From a virus (taxonomy: Duplodnaviria; Caudoviricetes), in the IMG/VR virus record IMGVR_UViG_3300032250_000449, positions 1 to 64,000 of that record: DNA of 64,000 nt; one strand, given 5' to 3'. The position numbers and the translations under genes were made by a program. Positions 11,486 through 26,782 of this stretch are shown piece after piece. The stretch's first letter is position 1; the number at the start of each line of letters is the position of its first letter. The notes under the pieces were generated by a model. The model was given only the letters and a program-made list of their open reading frames with translations, was not told where the DNA came from and did not search any database.

Positions 11486-12003
11486 TGATGCTTACTCAAA
11501 AATTCAAGAATTTCAATAATATGAACATCAACTTGATGATCTTCGTAAACAATACCCTCACCACCAGCATTGGTGAAATGAATGATATTCTTACCATGAT
11601 CATCGATCAGAAGGGTCTTTGGACCAGCAAGAATGCTCTTGTCAGCACCAGATGATGTTGCACAGAAAGGAATTTTGTTCAACTGTGGAAAGTTCTTTTC
11701 CAACCAAGCCTTCTTCTGGCGAATTACTTCGCTGAAAGGTTCGTAGAATTCACCATGCGATGTAAGAATGGCAAGCTTTACCTTACCCAACTTATGGTAC
11801 TTGACAAGAAAGTCAACAAGAACAGATGCATTAGGCATAGGAGCCTGTGTATAAAAACCATTAGCTTCTACGTACTGAGGAAGCCACTTCTTAAAGAAAG
11901 CACCACGATTATCAGTGATATTAGGATCACCGCTAAGCTCAACGATACCAGCGTGAAGATCGGCTAGTACGCCGTCCATGTCAATAAAAATAGTAGGGAT
12001 CAT
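11482..12003 (-). CDS. 5'(3')-deoxyribonucleotidase, HAD family
   Basis: DMDGVLAD, ILTS, KKAWL, LIDD. Confidence 0.88.
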   Translation of the reverse strand: MIPTIFIDMDGVLADLHAGIVELSGDPNITDNRGAFFKKWLPQYVEANGFYTQAPMPNASVLVDFLVKYHKLGKVKLAILTSHGEFYEPFSEVIRQKKAWLEKNFPQLNKIPFCATSSGADKSILAGPKTLLIDDHGKNIIHFTNAGGEGIVYEDHQVDVHIIEILEFLSKHQ

Positions 12004-12443
12004 ACGATTCGTTCCTTATACTCTGTCTTTGGTGTATAAGGGAATTGTACAGGAACACGGCTATCTTTGCAAGTGAAATGTGACTTAAACTTTTCACCAG
12101 TTTCTGAATCAGTATACCAATCCCAGAAAACAATACCATCAATATCGTAGGCTTCACCGTTTTCCTTGAAAACACGACTACAACGCTTGTTCTGGTATAC
12201 ACCATCACCAACTTCATTCCACTCATCGTCTTCACCAGTGAGTGGTGAAAGTGGTTCATAACGAAGAAGCTTTTCTAGGCAATTGACTGCATAGTTTGCA
12301 GAGAAACCACTATGTCCTTCGTCATCAAAGGCTTCAACCATGCGAATAATATGTTCACGCATAGCCACATTCATTTCATCATCACTATCAGCAGTCATGC
12401 CAATACGATCAAGTTCACTCTTTGCATAATCAATAAAACTCAT
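12000..12443 (-). CDS. Conserved hypothetical phage protein
   Basis: GHSGFSA, PLSPLTGEDDEW, QNKRCSRVFK. Confidence 0.75.
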   Translation of the reverse strand: MSFIDYAKSELDRIGMTADSDDEMNVAMREHIIRMVEAFDDEGHSGFSANYAVNCLEKLLRYEPLSPLTGEDDEWNEVGDGVYQNKRCSRVFKENGEAYDIDGIVFWDWYTDSETGEKFKSHFTCKDSRVPVQFPYTPKTEYKERIV

Positions 12444-12448
12444 AATTT

Positions 12449-13147
12449 TTAATCCCATAATCCAAAATAATACTTTGCGAAAAGTCTGTGTCCGTTTTTG
12501 ATTCGCTCATAATGTGCTTTCTTTCTTTCATCATCAACCCAATAAGCTGGCTTGTTTGGGTCTTTCTGGTGATTGAATTGAATAGATTTCATACCCTTGC
12601 CATCAAGGCTTTCATCACCAGTGCTTTCAAACTTCATTTCAAGTTGATCAATATTATGATAGAAAATACTGTCACCATTATCATGATCGGTACACTGTTC
12701 AAATGCCCAAATCATCTCATCAAGAACCCAATTCCAACGATCAAAATGCTTATCGTCTGTATCCCATTCATTTTCTTTGGGACCAGCAGCAGTTGACTTA
12801 ATATGATCAGGAACATCCTCATCATCAACATTTGGAGAGCCGTGCATTTGTTCTTTAAGTTTGACAAGAACAGGATGAATGATAAGTGCTAATGTATGAT
12901 CAGCAGACCATACATCATAGTTATCGACACGAACCTTTATCTTACGCTTACGACGATTGCCCCAACGATTAATAGGAAGAACTAGGTCAAATAGCTTATC
13001 AAGAAATCCATATACAATTTTGTCGATACGATCATAATCCTCTTCATCACGATGATAAGTCTTATGACGCCAGACAGTATATGAAATTTCCCAACGACGA
13101 ATTGGGATTAAATCGCCTGAATAAGGTCCAATGTTAACACGCATCAT
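12449..13147 (-). CDS. Conserved T4-like hypothetical protein
   Basis: YDVWSADHTLA.II.P.L, W.WVLDEMIWAF, G.RLFAKYY..LWD. Confidence 0.8.
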   Translation of the reverse strand: MMRVNIGPYSGDLIPIRRWEISYTVWRHKTYHRDEEDYDRIDKIVYGFLDKLFDLVLPINRWGNRRKRKIKVRVDNYDVWSADHTLALIIHPVLVKLKEQMHGSPNVDDEDVPDHIKSTAAGPKENEWDTDDKHFDRWNWVLDEMIWAFEQCTDHDNGDSIFYHNIDQLEMKFESTGDESLDGKGMKSIQFNHQKDPNKPAYWVDDERKKAHYERIKNGHRLFAKYYFGLWD

Positions 13148-14143: not shown

Positions 14144-14225
14144 TGGCGCTCCCGGAGGGACTCGAACCCCCATACTCCAATTACAGCGTTAACGACCGCT
14201 TAGAAGGCGGGACTGATACGGGAGC
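14144..14225 (-). tRNA. Atypical tRNA-Arg(UCU)-like RNA, 82 nt, encoded CCA, no canonical D-arm
   Basis: Acceptor GCTCCCG/CGGGAGC-G-CCA; T-arm GGGGG-TTCGAGT-CCCTC; anticodon arm CCGC-CTTCTAA-GCGG only 8 nt after acceptor strand; 24-nt extra region containing CTGTAATTGGAGTA. Confidence 0.8.
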
Positions 14226-14236
14226 TTATGACAAAT

Positions 14237-14265
14237 CATTTAACGATTCGTTTCAGATTTGTCAA
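14237..14265 (-). promoter_or_regulatory. Sigma70-type promoter of the tRNA
   Basis: TTGACA-N17(contains CGAATCG)-TAAATG, 11 nt upstream of tRNA 5' end. Confidence 0.65.
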
Positions 14266-17665: not shown

Positions 17666-18830
17666 TTACTTCTTGAACTTCTTAAGCTGATTCGGATCAG
17701 CAGTAGCAGATGCACCAATTTGTGCAAGGTCTACAAGCGAACCACCAAAGACCATCATACCTACATGCTGTAGCTGCATCCAAGGGCACAACCAAACTTT
17801 CATACCAGCCTTACGTGTCCATTGACAGAACATATAATCTTCTGATAGATAACGATTGGTGTCTGGGCAGATAGGAGTATCAAAGTAAGCCATAATCTGT
17901 CTTGAACCATCAAAATGTTCTGTGCGAACATGATCAGGCGTATAAAGCTGTTGTGGATAAACAGCAGCAAACTTTTCAAAGGTCTGACGACGAATCATCA
18001 TGAAACCAGTACCAGCCTCAAGAACTTCAACAGGCTCACCTAGTGAAATTGAGCCATTTCCACCAGCAGGATTGAAAACATAATCACCTACATACTTTTC
18101 AAGGTTCTGTGGGTTTTCGTCAGCAAATCCCTTATCGACAGCAAGCTTGATCTTTTCCCATGAAATGCACTTCTTAGGATATGGACCGGCAAGAATGTCA
18201 TAATTATCATCATTCTCATTATCGCTCTGTAATGCGAGTAGAGCAATAACATCCTGTGCATTGAAACCGATATCGGAGTCAACAAACATCATATGTGTAT
18301 CACCAGAGCGAAGAAATTCATCGGCGCAATAGTTACGTGCACGAGTGATAAGCGATTCGTTGAACAAGAAGTAGAAACGAATCTGAATGCCATAGTGTGT
18401 GCATAGTGCTGAAAGGTCTGCTACTGAACGTGCAAACATTCCTGTACATTGTCCCTTTAATATTTAATACAATTCGCAACATTGTATCCATGGAGCTTTA
18501 TGTTTCCATAAAGAATAGACTATATCTTCAAACTAATATATTAATTTGTTGGGCGCTTCGGTTATCATTTGCTTATAACCTACTCCATAAAGGATAGTCG
18601 TTGAACCTTCTTCTTTTTTAGAAGCTTGGCTGCTGATTGTCCAATTTCTATTACTTTTTAACATTCGCACTCGTCATTTCTAACCATGCTGTAGTGAATA
18701 GAACTCTAAGGATTTTCCAGCAATTCACCCAATTTTAATACGGCTGATAATGTTAACCGTACATTGGTGCAGCGAAGAAAAGCTTACGCTCACGTAGTTT
18801 TTCAATCGGCACTTTAATTTCAATACCCAT
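17666..18830 (-). CDS. Glycosyltransferase-like (GT-A fold) protein, intron-split: exon1 18756-18830, exon2 17666-18454; 287 aa spliced
   Basis: Splicing restores ...FAAPMYG|GQCTGMF...; NESLITRARN, FVDSDI (DxD), GTGFMMI, LSEDY.FC. Confidence 0.85.
18455..18755 (-). ncRNA. Group I self-splicing intron (IA-like, no ORF), 301 nt
   Basis: P1 TACGGT/GCCGTA with U.G at the splice site; P3 TTGGGTG/CGCCCAA; P AATTGCTGGAAA; Q AATCAGCAG; R TCAACGACTA; S AAGATATAGTC; P9 CTTTATG-GAAA-CATAAAG; terminal G. Confidence 0.93.
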
Positions 18831-18914
18831 AATAATTATTCTCCTTTAATGAAACGACCAGTTTTTGGACATTTTTCTCTATATTTTAACCATTTTACAT
18901 TGTTCACACAATAT

Positions 18915-19538
18915 TTATTCTGAGAGGTTCATAGAAGCGCCAACAGTTGCATATGCAGCAGTTGACTTAGTTAGATCAGCATACATTGCTGTACGTGAAT
19001 TTACATCGTTTAGATCGAAGTTACGAAGCTTACCAGCAGCTAGACCAGAACCAGCATTATAGCGTGTAGCATCAAAGTTTGCACCAAGGAAAATTACTTC
19101 CCATCCCTTAGCAGTTACTTCAGCAACCTTTTCCTTGATCTTTGCCTGTGTGTATTCCTTTGAAGTGTTCTCATCACCATCAGTGAGGATTACAACAACC
19201 GTGCGCTTGGAATTCTTTTCCAACGCAAGATTGATTACATGACCAGCAGCGTCATATAGTGGAGTACCACCAGCAGGATATAGTGAAGAGGCATCAATAC
19301 GATCAAAGTATGCGATATCAGCAGCTTCAGCAAGTGGTACTAGACGAACACTAGAATTACCACCATACATACCATCACTATCAAAAGCAATGATAGTGAT
19401 ATCGCCACTGATCTTTTCCTTTTGAAGACCCTTAACATATTCATTAAGAGAGTCAACAGCATTCGTCCACTTTTCACCTGTCATAGAACCTGAACGGTCT
19501 AGAGCAACGAAAACTGAAAGGTCTTTATTCTTTGTCAT
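18915..19538 (-). CDS. von Willebrand factor A domain protein
   Basis: DRSGSM MIDAS, GTPLYDA, VILTDGDEN. Confidence 0.9.
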   Translation of the reverse strand: MTKNKDLSVFVALDRSGSMTGEKWTNAVDSLNEYVKGLQKEKISGDITIIAFDSDGMYGGNSSVRLVPLAEAADIAYFDRIDASSLYPAGGTPLYDAAGHVINLALEKNSKRTVVVILTDGDENTSKEYTQAKIKEKVAEVTAKGWEVIFLGANFDATRYNAGSGLAAGKLRNFDLNDVNSRTAMYADLTKSTAAYATVGASMNLSE

Positions 19539-19835: not shown

Positions 19836-20378
19836 TTATAACCCACCTATTTGGTTCATGAGAATGCGTGTTTCATTTGAAATTTTTGGTAATGTGATAC
19901 CTTTCTTTGCATTCTTCTTGGCTTGTTCAAGATGAATTAAATTAGCCCTCTTGGTATACACTATTCCATTAAGATGGTCAAGCTCATGTTGAAAAACACG
20001 TGCGGTCATACCACTAAACTTTTCGGTAATAATATTACCGTTAGGCTCAGTGTAACGAACACGGATTTCTTGAGGACGTTTAATTTTGACGAAAAGATTT
20101 GGATATGAGAGACACCCTTCTTCAAGAACAATTTGTTCATCGGATGCGGATAGAAGGATAGGATTGAAACAGACAATGATCTTTTCTGCCATCATCGCAA
20201 ATACACGATATGGTAAACCAATTTGGTTTGCAGAAATGCCAATACCACCCTTAGCTAGCATTGTTTCTGCTAGATCATGAGCAAGTTGAATTGGGTCTGT
20301 TGGGGGGTTTTGAAAATCAAACTTATCCAACTCTGTCTTTAGAATTGAATGATTCTTGTCCATTAGATCATGGATCAT
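19836..20378 (-). CDS. def: Peptide deformylase
   Basis: GIGISANQIG, EGCLS, QHELDHL. Confidence 0.95.
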   Translation of the reverse strand: MIHDLMDKNHSILKTELDKFDFQNPPTDPIQLAHDLAETMLAKGGIGISANQIGLPYRVFAMMAEKIIVCFNPILLSASDEQIVLEEGCLSYPNLFVKIKRPQEIRVRYTEPNGNIITEKFSGMTARVFQHELDHLNGIVYTKRANLIHLEQAKKNAKKGITLPKISNETRILMNQIGGL

Positions 20379-25304: not shown

Positions 25305-26782
25305 TTCAATTTTACCTTATATATTTTATAATCAAATTTTTCTTGATCATAGATGTTAACACGCTCTTCGAAGTGTTTTAGAGCAAAATTTTTGTTTGCT
25401 CCTTTAGTGAGGTTATCAACGATATCGTATAGATAAGCCTCATCTTTGTCTTTGTGTTGTCTTAGCATACGACCAATTGATTGAAGCACTTTGATCTTAG
25501 ATTTTAATGGACCAGCAGCAATCATATGGTGTAGTTTTTTAATAGAAACGCCCGTACTGGTAGTTCCTAATGATGCAATAAGAATTGCATTCTCTTCGTC
25601 TTCCATTGCTTTACGAATGGCTTCTCTATCTTTCACATCACCATCAATGTAAAAAGCGTTACTGTGATCTTTCAGAGCATCATAAAGAATTTTGCCATGA
25701 TCGACCAAACGGAAGAACAATAGTTTATTACCCTTCAGAGATAGTGCCAAGTTCTTAATAAACTTGGTTCTGTTGTGGTAATTGATCAAAAATTCCACTT
25801 CTTCTGAATAAGTCTTTTTTCTATTTTTTTGTGCGACCGGATCAAAAATAGGCTTATGGAATTCTTTGATAACGTCATCGGGATATTCAAGGACGATACA
25901 TTTTATTTTAATGTCTGATGCATGTCCTTGATCGATTAATTCTCTTGTTGTAGTTGTAACATGTGGAGGACCAAATAGACCTTCAATCGTGGCCTTATTA
26001 AGTTCAATGTTATCTAGGGTACCTGTTGTACCAAATCTGTATGGAGTGTTTTCCATGGCAGATAATATTTTAATGAGAGAGGTTGCTTTGCAACCGTGCG
26101 CTTCGTCACCAAAAACAACTTTGAATTGATCATACCATTGCTTGGGCATGGTAGATTTTCCGTTTTCAAGCGACTGCCACGTGGTAATAACAATATCCGC
26201 ATCAATGTTATTGTTTTTTTCCAACCCGCCTATAGAGGTTGCAATCTTTCCTTTGAAACCATATGAGCGAATGTCATCTTCAAACTGTGATACCAGACCA
26301 GTTGAAGGAACAATGATAAGAGATTTTTGTTTGTACCACGTTGCAATCAGGTATATCATAAATGATTTTCCTGATGATGTTGGTGATATCAACGTTCTTC
26401 TGCGAGTTCTTAAACACTTTACAACAGCTTCGACTTGATAGTCTCTTGTCTCAAGCCAATCTGGAAGCTCTAAAGATTCGATGTGTTCTAAGACTTCATT
26501 AACAGAAACATTATCATAAGTCATTTCTTTATCAAAAGAAAAACTATATCCAATGCTATCACAGTATTTTTTTATACGAAGAGCAAGACCAGCATAAACA
26601 AGCCCTGTGAGAGTGTTTACTAATCTTATATCACCATTCCATATTCTTGCTTTGTATTTTGGATGATATTTATAATTTTCAGCTTTATATGTAAGTATAT
26701 CGGATAATTCCATTAATATACCGGGATCGGCTCTTACTCTACAATGAACGTCATTTATGTATTCAAGATGTACATCAGTCAT
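25301..26782 (-). CDS. uvsW: DNA helicase UvsW
   Basis: RDYQ, PTSSGKS, DEAH, TGT, QSIGR.LR. Confidence 0.95.
   Translation of the reverse strand: MTDVHLEYINDVHCRVRADPGILMELSDILTYKAENYKYHPKYKARIWNGDIRLVNTLTGLVYAGLALRIKKYCDSIGYSFSFDKEMTYDNVSVNEVLEHIESLELPDWLETRDYQVEAVVKCLRTRRRTLISPTSSGKSFMIYLIATWYKQKSLIIVPSTGLVSQFEDDIRSYGFKGKIATSIGGLEKNNNIDADIVITTWQSLENGKSTMPKQWYDQFKVVFGDEAHGCKATSLIKILSAMENTPYRFGTTGTLDNIELNKATIEGLFGPPHVTTTTRELIDQGHASDIKIKCIVLEYPDDVIKEFHKPIFDPVAQKNRKKTYSEEVEFLINYHNRTKFIKNLALSLKGNKLLFFRLVDHGKILYDALKDHSNAFYIDGDVKDREAIRKAMEDEENAILIASLGTTSTGVSIKKLHHMIAAGPLKSKIKVLQSIGRMLRQHKDKDEAYLYDIVDNLTKGANKNFALKHFEERVNIYDQEKFDYKIYKVKLK

What the first reader, a model, noticed from the sequence alone, without database searches (positions are those of the whole stretch)
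14144..14225. Internally rearranged tRNA-Arg(UCU): D-loop relocated behind the anticodon arm
Seen: the minus strand reads GCTCCCG TA TCAG TC CCGC CTTCTAA GCGG T CGTTAACG CTGT AATTGGAGTA T GGGGG TTCGAGT CCCTC CGGGAGC G CCA. It has a perfect 7-bp acceptor stem, canonical T-arm, encoded CCA and its own promoter. Only 8 nt separate the acceptor from the anticodon arm, so there is no D-arm in the normal place. The variable region is 24 nt and contains CTGT-AATTGGA, which reads like canonical positions 10-20 (stem strand, A14, R15, G18, G19, A20). Its CTG can pair with the CAG left just before the anticodon arm, rebuilding a D-stem with swapped strand order. Established: A20, C35 and A/G73 are the bacterial ArgRS identity elements, and all three appear to be kept. 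Inference: this is a functional tRNA or tRNA mimic with re-wired topology that keeps the L-shape elbow. It could decode AGA while evading host tRNA-targeting defences, or act as a decoy. I know of no description of this architecture, and cloverleaf scanners may miss or mis-call it.
Basis: partly seen in the sequence, partly recalled or inferred. Interest (0 to 1): 0.9.

Follow-up and report, generated by a model that had tools for sequence, protein, structure and literature searches.

The report
Phage arginine tRNA with rewired D-arm
This 82-base gene in a T4-like phage is very probably a working arginine tRNA (anticodon UCU) with every standard tRNA part, but half of its D-arm sits after the anticodon arm; many unrelated phages share this non-cloverleaf layout, gene finders mostly miss it, and I found no paper describing it.

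Summary
The element (window 14144-14225, minus strand) has a 7-bp acceptor stem, T-arm, UCU anticodon arm and encoded CCA, but no D hairpin. ARAGORN finds nothing, and Rfam gives only a sub-threshold tRNA-Sec match.

It is not a one-off. I collected 56 distinct homologues, 54 of 82 nt and two of 81 nt. blastn found 264 phage records, including Felix O1, Vequintavirinae, Sugarland-like, N4-like and jumbo phages.

The displaced D-loop (UAA-NN-GGAGUAU) varies only at the equivalents of D-loop positions 16 and 17.

All members carry Arg anticodons: UCU in 55 and ACG in one. All keep C35 and the A20 equivalent, and 54 of 56 have a purine discriminator.

The helix stack from anticodon stem to D-loop has 10 layers, as in a cloverleaf tRNA.

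The gene is syntenic downstream of regA in four other T4-like contigs. It is the only tRNA-like gene on this 93-kb contig, where AGA makes up 41% of Arg codons.

Charging and decoding are inferred, not shown.

Earlier reports from this scan reached the same reading of this family on other phage DNA. I found it in no paper.

The parts
14144..14225 (-). Whole gene: rewired tRNA-Arg(UCU), 79 nt plus encoded CCA
   Evidence: Sequence read. Scores 98.3 bits against family model R1.
14219..14225 (-). Acceptor stem, 5' strand (RNA positions 1-7)
   Evidence: Pairs with 72-78. All 7 pairs show compensatory changes, and 99.5% of cells are paired across 56 sequences.
14217..14218 (-). U8 A9, invariant as in canonical tRNA
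   Evidence: Invariant in alignment A2.
14213..14216 (-). U10 C11 A12 G13: D-stem strand equivalent to canonical positions 22-25, placed directly after position 9
   Evidence: Positions 11-13 pair with 40-42 in 56/56 sequences. Pair types: CG/UA at 11-42; UA/GC/AU/CG at 12-41; CG/GC/UA at 13-40. The mapping to 22-25 is inferred from connectivity.
14212..14212 (-). Position 14, equivalent to canonical 26; faces position 39 (equivalent to 44)
   Evidence: The 14/39 combinations are A.C 34, C.A 9, C-G 5, U.G 3, A-U 3, A.A 1 and U.A 1; mutual information 0.85 bits. This resembles the non-Watson-Crick 26.44 pair (inference).
14195..14211 (-). Anticodon arm (positions 15-31); anticodon UCU lies at 14202-14204
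   Evidence: All 5 stem pairs covary. The loop is Y-U-UCU-A-M. C15.U31 is a mismatch in this subfamily, 14 of 56.
14188..14194 (-). Conserved 7-nt bulge C-R-U-Y-A-A-N (positions 32-38) between the anticodon stem and the returning D-stem strand
   Evidence: C32, U34, A36 and A37 are invariant; position 33 is G or A and position 35 is U or C. Its role, possibly base triples in the D-stem groove, is inferred only.
14183..14187 (-). G39 (equivalent to 44) plus C40 U41 G42 U43: D-stem strand equivalent to canonical positions 10-13
   Evidence: Pairs with 11-13. U43 and U10 are invariant and face each other as a 13.22-type non-Watson-Crick layer (inference).
14172..14182 (-). Displaced D-loop AAUUGGAGUA (positions 44-53) plus U54, the equivalent of position 48
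   Evidence: Invariant except positions 46/47, which are UU, CU, GU, AU, GC or one base deleted. A50 corresponds to the ArgRS determinant A20.
14155..14171 (-). T-arm (positions 55-71) with loop UUCGAGU
   Evidence: 98.6% of cells paired; three pairs show compensatory changes; loop positions T54, T55, C56 and A58 are invariant.
14144..14154 (-). Acceptor stem 3' strand (72-78), discriminator G79, encoded CCA
   Evidence: The discriminator is a purine in 54 of 56 members, and CCA is encoded in 35 of 56.
14237..14265 (-). Promoter-like TTGACA-N17-TAAATG, ending 11 nt upstream of the mature 5' end
   Evidence: Read directly. Both hexamers are conserved in L011 while the spacer has 3 changes. The consensus scan did not call it. 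Status: plausible, unverified.

Best explanation
This is a phage-encoded arginine tRNA that reads AGA. The core of its L-shape is built from the normal parts joined in a different order.

Proposed layout:
- After U8-A9 the chain runs straight into the strand that is normally the 3' half of the D-stem.
- It then continues through the anticodon arm and a conserved 7-nt bulge.
- Only then does it form the 5' half of the D-stem, which pairs back around the anticodon arm.
- That strand leads into an intact D-loop, which connects directly through a U48 equivalent to the T-arm.

Consequences for shape:
- The anticodon stem (5 layers), a 26.44-like layer, and 3 Watson-Crick pairs plus a U.U layer make 10 stacked layers. 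A cloverleaf tRNA has the same number, so the anticodon-to-elbow distance should be preserved.
- G18-G19 can still dock on the T-loop.
- A20 is still presented to ArgRS.

Proposed function: the RNA is transcribed from its own or an upstream promoter and trimmed by RNase P and 3' processing. Host ArgRS charges it through A20, C35, U36 and R73. It then supplies AGA decoding for a phage in which AGA is a major Arg codon.

What is shown: the conserved architecture, the covariation, the identity elements and the genomic setting.
What is inferred: the three-dimensional shape, processing, charging and use on the ribosome.
For: 1. Family size and uniformity. There are 56 distinct members, 54 of 82 nt and two of 81 nt, with no indels except one D-loop base. 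The model separates members (74-105 bits) from ordinary tRNAs (34.5 bits or less).

2. Covariation. All four helices covary, with 98% of cells paired against 67% in shuffles and 36-47% when partners are slid. The new helix 11-13/40-42 is 100% paired, with compensatory changes at all three pairs.

3. D-loop behaviour. The displaced D-loop varies only at the 16/17 equivalents.

4. Anticodons and identity elements. The anticodon is UCU in 55 members and ACG in one (L056); both are Arg. C35 and the A20 equivalent are invariant, and the discriminator is a purine in 54 of 56. This is the bacterial Arg identity set (PMC9976931).

5. Genomic setting. Members sit in tRNA gene clusters, mostly a few to a few hundred bases from ARAGORN-called tRNAs on the same strand.

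6. Missing canonical gene. None of the 8 loci with 8 or more ARAGORN tRNAs contains a canonical tRNA-Arg(UCU). Felix O1 has none either, although its genome paper expected one for the over-used AGA codon.

7. This phage. It is the only tRNA-like gene on the 93-kb contig, where AGA makes up 41% of Arg codons, 15.2 per 1000.

8. Synteny. The gene lies downstream of gp44-gp62-regA in L011, L013, L036 and L037. Their gp44 identity to the window falls as low as 53%, and the stems differ by compensatory changes.

9. Distribution. It is phage-restricted: 264 phage records, none in 5,426 complete E. coli genomes, and 4 MAG contigs among 185,579 species genomes.
Against: - There is no direct evidence of a mature RNA, charging or decoding.
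- Thermodynamic folding does not predict the 3-bp helix (1 of 56 MFE structures). For the window element the fold is no more stable than shuffled sequence, z = -0.65.
- One locus (L019) carries an ordinary-looking tRNA-Arg(UCU) 9 nt downstream. Simple replacement is therefore not universal, although that copy has a mismatched anticodon stem.
- The window subfamily has a C.U mismatch at the top of the anticodon stem.
- The role of the conserved 7-nt bulge is unexplained.
- No three-dimensional model was made.
Confidence: 0.68

Rival explanations
1. A tRNA mimic or decoy. It folds like a tRNA and may even be processed, but its role lies outside decoding. It might titrate or trigger a host factor such as an anticodon nuclease or another tRNA-directed defence, or serve a phage enzyme.
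For: The architecture is odd yet strictly conserved and restricted to phages. One phage (L019) keeps an ordinary-looking tRNA-Arg(UCU) beside it. The invariant 7-nt bulge suggests an extra interaction surface.
Against: A decoy has no obvious need to keep the complete ArgRS identity set, the U33/A37 anticodon-loop signature, a purine discriminator and encoded CCA. It also would not need to switch only to another Arg anticodon, ACG. Canonical tRNA-Arg(UCU) is absent from the large clusters that hold this gene, which fits substitution rather than addition.
Confidence: 0.2
2. A D-armless, flexible tRNA of the mitochondrial type. The segment after the anticodon arm is merely a long variable region, and the 3-bp helix is incidental or only transient.
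For: ARAGORN in metazoan-mitochondrial mode draws part of the element as an arm-lacking tRNA with a tct anticodon. MFE folds do not contain the 3-bp helix.
Against: The helix is paired in 56 of 56 sequences, with 33 cells changed on both sides. The 'variable region' has the exact D-loop conservation pattern, including G18-G19 and A20. The T-arm is full-size and canonical, unlike in D-armless mitochondrial tRNAs. The layer count equals that of a cloverleaf (inference).
Confidence: 0.06
3. A local hairpin with a GUAA tetraloop (38-41 with 46-49) forms instead of the long-range helix. ViennaRNA predicts this for the commonest variants.
For: MFE structures of L002 and L003 contain this hairpin. 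It is possible in 71.6% of cells.
Against: Between 6 and 25 of 56 sequences break each of its pairs, and there is essentially no compensatory change. In the window element only one of its four pairs (38-49) could form. It competes with a helix that is never broken.
Confidence: 0.03
4. A decayed tRNA pseudogene, an assembly artefact or a one-off rearrangement.
For: Gene finders reject it. Some Felix O1-like phage papers label certain tRNAs as 'pseudo'.
Against: There are 56 distinct intact homologues of near-identical length (82 nt, two of 81 nt), with compensatory changes in every stem. They occur across unrelated phage groups and in independent assemblies and isolates.
Confidence: 0.01

Closest known systems
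Canonical bacterial and phage class I tRNA-Arg(UCU) (Rfam RF00005), e.g. E. coli argU, phage T4 tRNA-Arg, or the ordinary copy at L019:1522-1598
   Same: 7-bp acceptor stem. T-arm with the T54-Psi55-C56-A58 signature. 5-bp anticodon stem with a 7-nt loop holding U33 and A37. UCU anticodon. D-loop motif A14-R15-YY-G18-G19-A20...A21. U8, A9 and U48. Purine discriminator and CCA. Located in phage tRNA clusters.
   Different: There is no D hairpin between positions 9 and 26. The two D-stem strands are swapped in order along the chain and enclose the anticodon arm. The D-loop leads directly into the T-arm. A conserved 7-nt bulge replaces the ordinary variable loop. The element scores below threshold with Rfam and is not called by ARAGORN.
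Metazoan mitochondrial D-armless tRNAs, e.g. mt-tRNA-Ser(AGY/UCU) (PMC4013460, PMC7609411)
   Same: No hairpin at the D-arm position, and a UCU-type anticodon in some. They are accepted as functional tRNAs despite not being cloverleaves.
   Different: Those tRNAs have lost the D-arm and its G18-G19 elbow contact, and they rely on specialised mitochondrial factors. Here every D-arm element is retained and merely reconnected, with a full canonical T-arm. The setting is bacterial cytoplasm.
Circularly permuted tRNA genes of Cyanidioschyzon merolae (from my own knowledge; not checked here)
   Same: tRNA parts are encoded in a non-standard order.
   Different: There the permutation is at gene level and is undone by processing, so the mature tRNA is a normal cloverleaf. 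Here both termini are normal and the permutation is internal, so the mature RNA itself should be non-cloverleaf.
Viral tRNA-like structures such as the TYMV TLS (from my own knowledge; mentioned in PMC9976931)
   Same: An L-shaped tRNA mimic built with a chain topology different from tRNA, and recognised by host tRNA enzymes.
   Different: Those structures are 3'-terminal parts of RNA virus genomes with a pseudoknotted acceptor arm, and they are not used as decoders. This is a stand-alone gene in dsDNA phages with a normal acceptor stem and anticodon loop.
tRNA-Sec (Rfam RF01852)
   Same: It is the best Rfam match, because that model tolerates a long extra region after the anticodon arm.
   Different: The score is 23.8 bits against a cut-off of 47. 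The element has no 8- or 9-bp acceptor stem, no 6-bp D-stem, no UCA anticodon and no extra-arm hairpin.

Membership tests
Canonical cloverleaf tRNA (RF00005 / ARAGORN definition) | 7-bp acceptor stem with discriminator, with or without encoded CCA | tested here: met
   Positions 1-7 pair with 72-78 in 99.5% of cells and all pairs covary. G79 and CCA are present.
Canonical cloverleaf tRNA (RF00005 / ARAGORN definition) | T-arm: 5-bp stem and 7-nt loop with T54, Psi55, C56 and A58 | tested here: met
   Positions 55-71 with loop UUCGAGU. The loop positions are invariant in A2.
Canonical cloverleaf tRNA (RF00005 / ARAGORN definition) | Anticodon arm: 5-bp stem and 7-nt loop with U33 and a purine at 37 | tested here: met
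   The loop CUUCUAA has U33 and A37, both invariant across the 56 members. The stem has 5 bp in most members; in the window it has 4 bp plus a C.U mismatch.
Canonical cloverleaf tRNA (RF00005 / ARAGORN definition) | D-arm hairpin between positions 9 and 26 | tested here: not met
   Only 5 nt (positions 10-14) separate A9 from the anticodon stem.
Canonical cloverleaf tRNA (RF00005 / ARAGORN definition) | Reaches detection thresholds of standard models | tested here: not met
   ARAGORN gives 0 genes. There is no Rfam gathering-level hit. Only 2 of 39 homologous loci were called by ARAGORN, as odd 91-96-nt tRNA-Arg genes. A few GenBank records label it 'tRNA-OTHER'.
Bacterial tRNA-Arg identity (ArgRS substrate) | A20 in the D-loop, directly after G18-G19 | tested here: met
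   GGA at positions 48-50 is invariant in 56 of 56 members. The determinant is as listed in PMC9976931. Its spatial presentation could not be tested.
Bacterial tRNA-Arg identity (ArgRS substrate) | C35 and U/G36 in the anticodon | tested here: met
   C at the middle anticodon position in 56 of 56. Position 36 is U in 55 and G in one, the ACG member L056.
Bacterial tRNA-Arg identity (ArgRS substrate) | A/G73 discriminator | tested here: met
   G in 33, A in 21 and U in 2 of 56 members.
Bacterial tRNA-Arg identity (ArgRS substrate) | Actual arginylation by ArgRS | not testable with these tools
   Needs an in vitro charging assay, or an acid-gel or periodate assay from infected cells.
Mitochondrial-type D-armless tRNA | Loss of D-loop elements (G18-G19) with a reduced or atypical T-arm | tested here: not met
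   G18-G19 equivalents are invariant, and the T-arm is full-size and canonical.
tRNA-Sec (RF01852) | Score at or above gathering threshold; 8/9-bp acceptor stem, long D-stem, UCA anticodon | tested here: not met
   23.8 bits against a cut-off of 47. The acceptor stem has 7 bp and the anticodon is UCU.

The most novel reading that the evidence does not exclude
A natural, widespread elongator tRNA that works on bacterial ribosomes without being a cloverleaf. Its strand-swapped D-arm would be selected in phages because it keeps ArgRS, EF-Tu and ribosome recognition while escaping something that recognises the ordinary D-arm or variable-loop core. That could be a host tRNA-targeting defence or a phage-induced attack on host tRNAs.
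Probability: 0.2. Interest if true: 0.95.

Novelty: new variant of a known kind. Interest (0 to 1): 0.82.

Why it matters
The cloverleaf is treated as universal for cytoplasmic and bacterial tRNAs. The known exceptions (mitochondrial armless tRNAs, tRNA-Sec, tRNA-Pyl, allo-tRNAs) shorten, lengthen or lose arms. I know of none that reorders the strands.

A conserved family that keeps every tertiary-contact element but connects them differently would show three things:
- The L-shape, not the cloverleaf connectivity, is what the translation machinery requires.
- Such a tRNA offers a natural scaffold for orthogonal tRNA design.
- Standard annotation systematically undercounts phage tRNAs.

The third point has a concrete example. 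The family would fill the 'missing' AGA decoder in Felix O1-type and many other phages. In this T4-like phage it would be the only tRNA on the 93-kb contig.

Members occur in cultured E. coli, Salmonella and Klebsiella phages, so the question can be tested directly at the bench.

Tried and rejected
- **Mis-spaced pattern.** One collection scan used a wrong spacer of 10 N instead of 9. It returned only unrelated chance matches, so the scan was wasted. The corrected pattern recovered known members and new variants.
- **Single-sequence folding.** Neither the window element nor the 56 members recover the 3-bp helix by MFE folding. RNAalifold also omits it. The helix rests on covariation, not on energy.
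- **Alternative GUAA-tetraloop hairpin.** Tested and rejected.
- **ARAGORN options.** Standard, relaxed (-ps) and mitochondrial modes were tried. Only the mitochondrial mode draws anything, a partial arm-lacking tRNA that ignores the real T-arm.
- **Literature.** Searches by exact sequence words found no papers. Keyword searches and reading found no description of this architecture. The review of non-canonical tRNAs (PMC7609411) mentions neither phages nor permutation. Fremin et al. 2023 (PMC10690425) list a candidate RNA, DNAVirus_2961, that sometimes overlaps ARAGORN tRNA-Arg calls. It may be this family, but no supplement was available to check.
- **Search for 'Undet' tRNAs in phage genome papers.** The hits were irrelevant.
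- **E. coli chromosomes and prophages.** No match.
- **Megablast of 10 kb around the element against GenBank phages.** No match, so no close cultured relative of this phage was found.

Full report
**1. The observation**

Numbering the RNA 1-82, the parts are:
- a perfect 7-bp acceptor stem (1-7 with 72-78)
- U8-A9
- U10-C11-A12-G13, then U14
- an anticodon arm (15-31) with loop CUUCUAA and anticodon UCU
- CGUUAAC (32-38), then G39
- C40-U41-G42-U43
- AAUUGGAGUA (44-53), then U54
- a canonical T-arm (55-71, loop UUCGAGU)
- discriminator G79 and an encoded CCA

No hairpin lies where a D-arm should be. ARAGORN finds no tRNA in the window or anywhere on the 93-kb contig. Rfam has no gathering-level match; the best hit is tRNA-Sec at 23.8 bits against a cut-off of 47.

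The promoter-like TTGACA-N17-TAAATG at 14265-14237 is present. Its hexamers are unchanged in a close relative while the spacer has changed. However, its second hexamer is weak and the consensus scan does not call it. A run of seven T follows the CCA.

**2. It belongs to a large family**

blastn against GenBank phages found similar sequences in very different phages, and the records left them unannotated. Pattern scans of IMG/VR, together with the GenBank loci, yielded 56 distinct sequences. Of these, 54 are 82 nt and two are 81 nt.

A query from a Felix O1-like phage matched 264 phage records. They include:
- Felix O1 and wV8
- Vequintavirinae
- Klebsiella phage Sugarland
- N4-like BASEL phages
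- jumbo phages of the PBECO4 type
- a Streptomyces phage

Most records leave the site blank. A few label it 'tRNA' or 'tRNA-OTHER' with exactly the 82-nt bounds.

A covariance model built from the alignment gives a clean split. Members score 74-105 bits, with one copy per locus, and ordinary tRNAs score 34.5 bits or less.

The family is essentially phage-only. There is no match in 5,426 complete E. coli genomes. Among one genome from each of 185,579 prokaryote species there are four matches, all on metagenome-assembled contigs.

**3. Structure from comparative evidence**

On the 56-sequence alignment, 98% of cells in the proposed structure form standard pairs. Column shuffles give 67%, and sliding the partners gives 36-47%.

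- pair 11-42: CG 55, UA 1
- pair 12-41: UA 35, GC 11, AU 8, CG 2
- pair 13-40: CG 45, GC 6, UA 5

A competing local hairpin with a GUAA loop, which energy minimisation prefers, is broken in 6 to 25 sequences per pair. It has essentially no compensatory change and cannot form in the window element.

Positions 14 and 39 co-vary as A.C, C.A, C-G, U.G or A-U in 54 of 56 sequences. I read this as the counterpart of the non-Watson-Crick 26.44 pair (inference). U10 and U43 are invariant and face each other like a 13.22 layer (inference).

Counting layers gives anticodon stem 5, plus 14.39, plus three Watson-Crick pairs, plus U.U. That totals 10, the same as anticodon stem plus 26.44 plus a 4-bp D-stem in a cloverleaf. 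In a cloverleaf, strand 43-44 is collinear with strand 10-13 across a nick, and 25-26-27 is continuous. The family simply closes that nick and opens the D hairpin elsewhere. This part follows from textbook tRNA geometry and is not a computed model.

**4. The displaced segment behaves as a D-loop**

A scan that did not require this segment returned six versions of it:
- UAAUUGGAGUAU
- UAACUGGAGUAU
- UAAGUGGAGUAU
- UAAAUGGAGUAU
- UAAGCGGAGUAU
- a one-base-shorter UAAUGGAGUAU

Only the two positions equivalent to D-loop 16 and 17 vary, and these are the variable positions of real D-loops. The equivalents of A14, R15, G18, G19, A20 and A21 are invariant. So is the U that precedes the T-stem, which is placed to make an A15-U48-type Levitt pair. 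U8 and A9 are invariant too.

The 7-nt bulge C-R-U-Y-A-A-N after the anticodon stem is conserved and has no counterpart in the cloverleaf. I suggest it lies in the D-stem groove in place of variable-loop nucleotides 45 and 46. That is a guess.

**5. Identity and use**

- Anticodon: 55 of 56 members have UCU. The one exception (L056) has the loop CUACGAA with anticodon ACG, also arginine.
- Identity set: C35 is invariant, position 36 is U or G, the A20 equivalent is invariant, and the discriminator is a purine in 54 of 56. These match the bacterial arginine identity set A20, C35, U/G36, A/G73 (PMC9976931).
- CCA is encoded in 35 of 56 members.
- Setting: members lie inside tRNA gene clusters on the same strand as the neighbouring tRNAs.
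- Missing canonical gene: none of the eight loci with 8 or more ARAGORN tRNAs holds an ordinary tRNA-Arg(UCU).
- Felix O1: the record annotates 22 tRNAs, with Arg(ACG) but no Arg(UCU). Its genome paper noted that AGA is over-used and that a tRNA for it 'might have been expected'. The family member sits at 25951-26032 of that genome (L067:1498-1579, 98.8 bits).
- Counter-example: L019 has an ordinary-looking tRNA-Arg(UCU) 9 nt downstream, although its anticodon stem has two mismatches.

**6. This window**

The contig is a T4-like phage. The gene order on the minus strand is gp45 clamp, gp44 and gp62 clamp loader, RegA, a 55-aa ORF, the tRNA, and then a redoxin-family gene whose ATG lies 30 nt after the CCA.

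The same gp44-gp62-regA neighbourhood, with the tRNA downstream, occurs in four other contigs. Their gp44 identity to the window ranges from 99% down to 53%, and their tRNA stems differ by compensatory changes. This indicates vertical inheritance under structural constraint.

The contig has 36% G+C, and AGA makes up 41% of arginine codons in ORFs of 120 aa or more. No other tRNA is detectable on the 93 kb.

**7. Interpretation**

The best explanation is a functional arginine tRNA with a strand-swapped D-arm (confidence about 0.68).

The main rival is a tRNA mimic with a non-decoding role (about 0.2). It is disfavoured by retention of the whole ArgRS identity set, by the anticodon-loop signature, and by the complementary distribution with ordinary tRNA-Arg(UCU).

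The pseudogene or artefact reading, the mitochondrial-style armless tRNA and the local hairpin are each contradicted by the comparative data.

A plausible origin is a tandem duplication of the internal segment 10-47 followed by reciprocal loss. That would yield exactly this internal circular permutation. This is inference and was not tested.

Why the design persists is unknown. Resistance to tRNA-directed nucleases is an attractive idea, but nothing here supports it.

**8. Novelty**

I found no description of this architecture in the searchable literature:
- Exact sequence words gave no hits.
- The review of non-canonical tRNAs mentions neither phages nor permutation.
- Several keyword searches gave nothing relevant.
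- A 2023 catalogue of candidate viral structured RNAs lists one motif that sometimes overlaps ARAGORN tRNA-Arg calls. It may be this family, but I could not check it.

Earlier reports from this same scan describe the same family on other phage DNA and reach the same reading. They are not independent evidence. I re-derived the family, the covariation and the Felix O1 point myself.

I class the finding as a new variant of a known kind: a tRNA with an architecture I did not find described.

Noticed in passing
window 18496-18834 (-): Group I intron (Rfam RF00028, 98.1 bits, full-length model match). It lies between a 207-aa ORF with a VWA domain (18915-19538) and a 257-aa ORF with no Pfam match (17666-18439), just upstream of the gp45 clamp gene. 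The two ORFs may be exons of one split gene.
   Followed up: partly
window 12000-12458 (-): 152-aa ORF matching Pfam PF25185, type I Thoeris inhibitor Tad3 (E = 9e-41). It is an anti-defence gene candidate about 1.7 kb downstream of the tRNA.
   Followed up: no
L002:1588-1947, L066:688-1197, L065:694-1041: In several enterobacterial phages an HNH endonuclease or endonuclease VII gene starts 9-21 nt after the rewired tRNA-Arg. This hints at homing-endonuclease-linked mobility of the locus. No such gene is adjacent in the window.
   Followed up: no
L019:1522-1598 (-): An ordinary cloverleaf tRNA-Arg(UCU) lies 9 nt downstream of the rewired one in a 154-kb phage contig. Its anticodon stem has mismatches at 27.43 and 31.39, so it may be decaying, or the two may have different roles.
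   Followed up: partly
L056:579-660 (+): The only family member with a different anticodon. It has loop CUACGAA (ACG, Arg), and the otherwise invariant C11-G42 pair is changed to U-A. It comes from a 139-kb isolate-type record.
   Followed up: partly
L061:2109-2182 (+): ARAGORN calls a tRNA with anticodon CUA (labelled 'Pyl'), i.e. an amber-suppressor-type tRNA, on a 231-kb phage contig that also carries the rewired tRNA-Arg.
   Followed up: no
window 19836-20378 (-): Phage-encoded peptide deformylase (PF01327, E = 5e-37).
   Followed up: no
window 14195-14211 (-): In the window's subfamily (14 of 56 members) the top pair of the anticodon stem is a C.U mismatch, leaving 4 Watson-Crick pairs. 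A 2026 paper links 4-bp anticodon stems to relaxed decoding in bacteria (PMC13092985, seen, not read).
   Followed up: no
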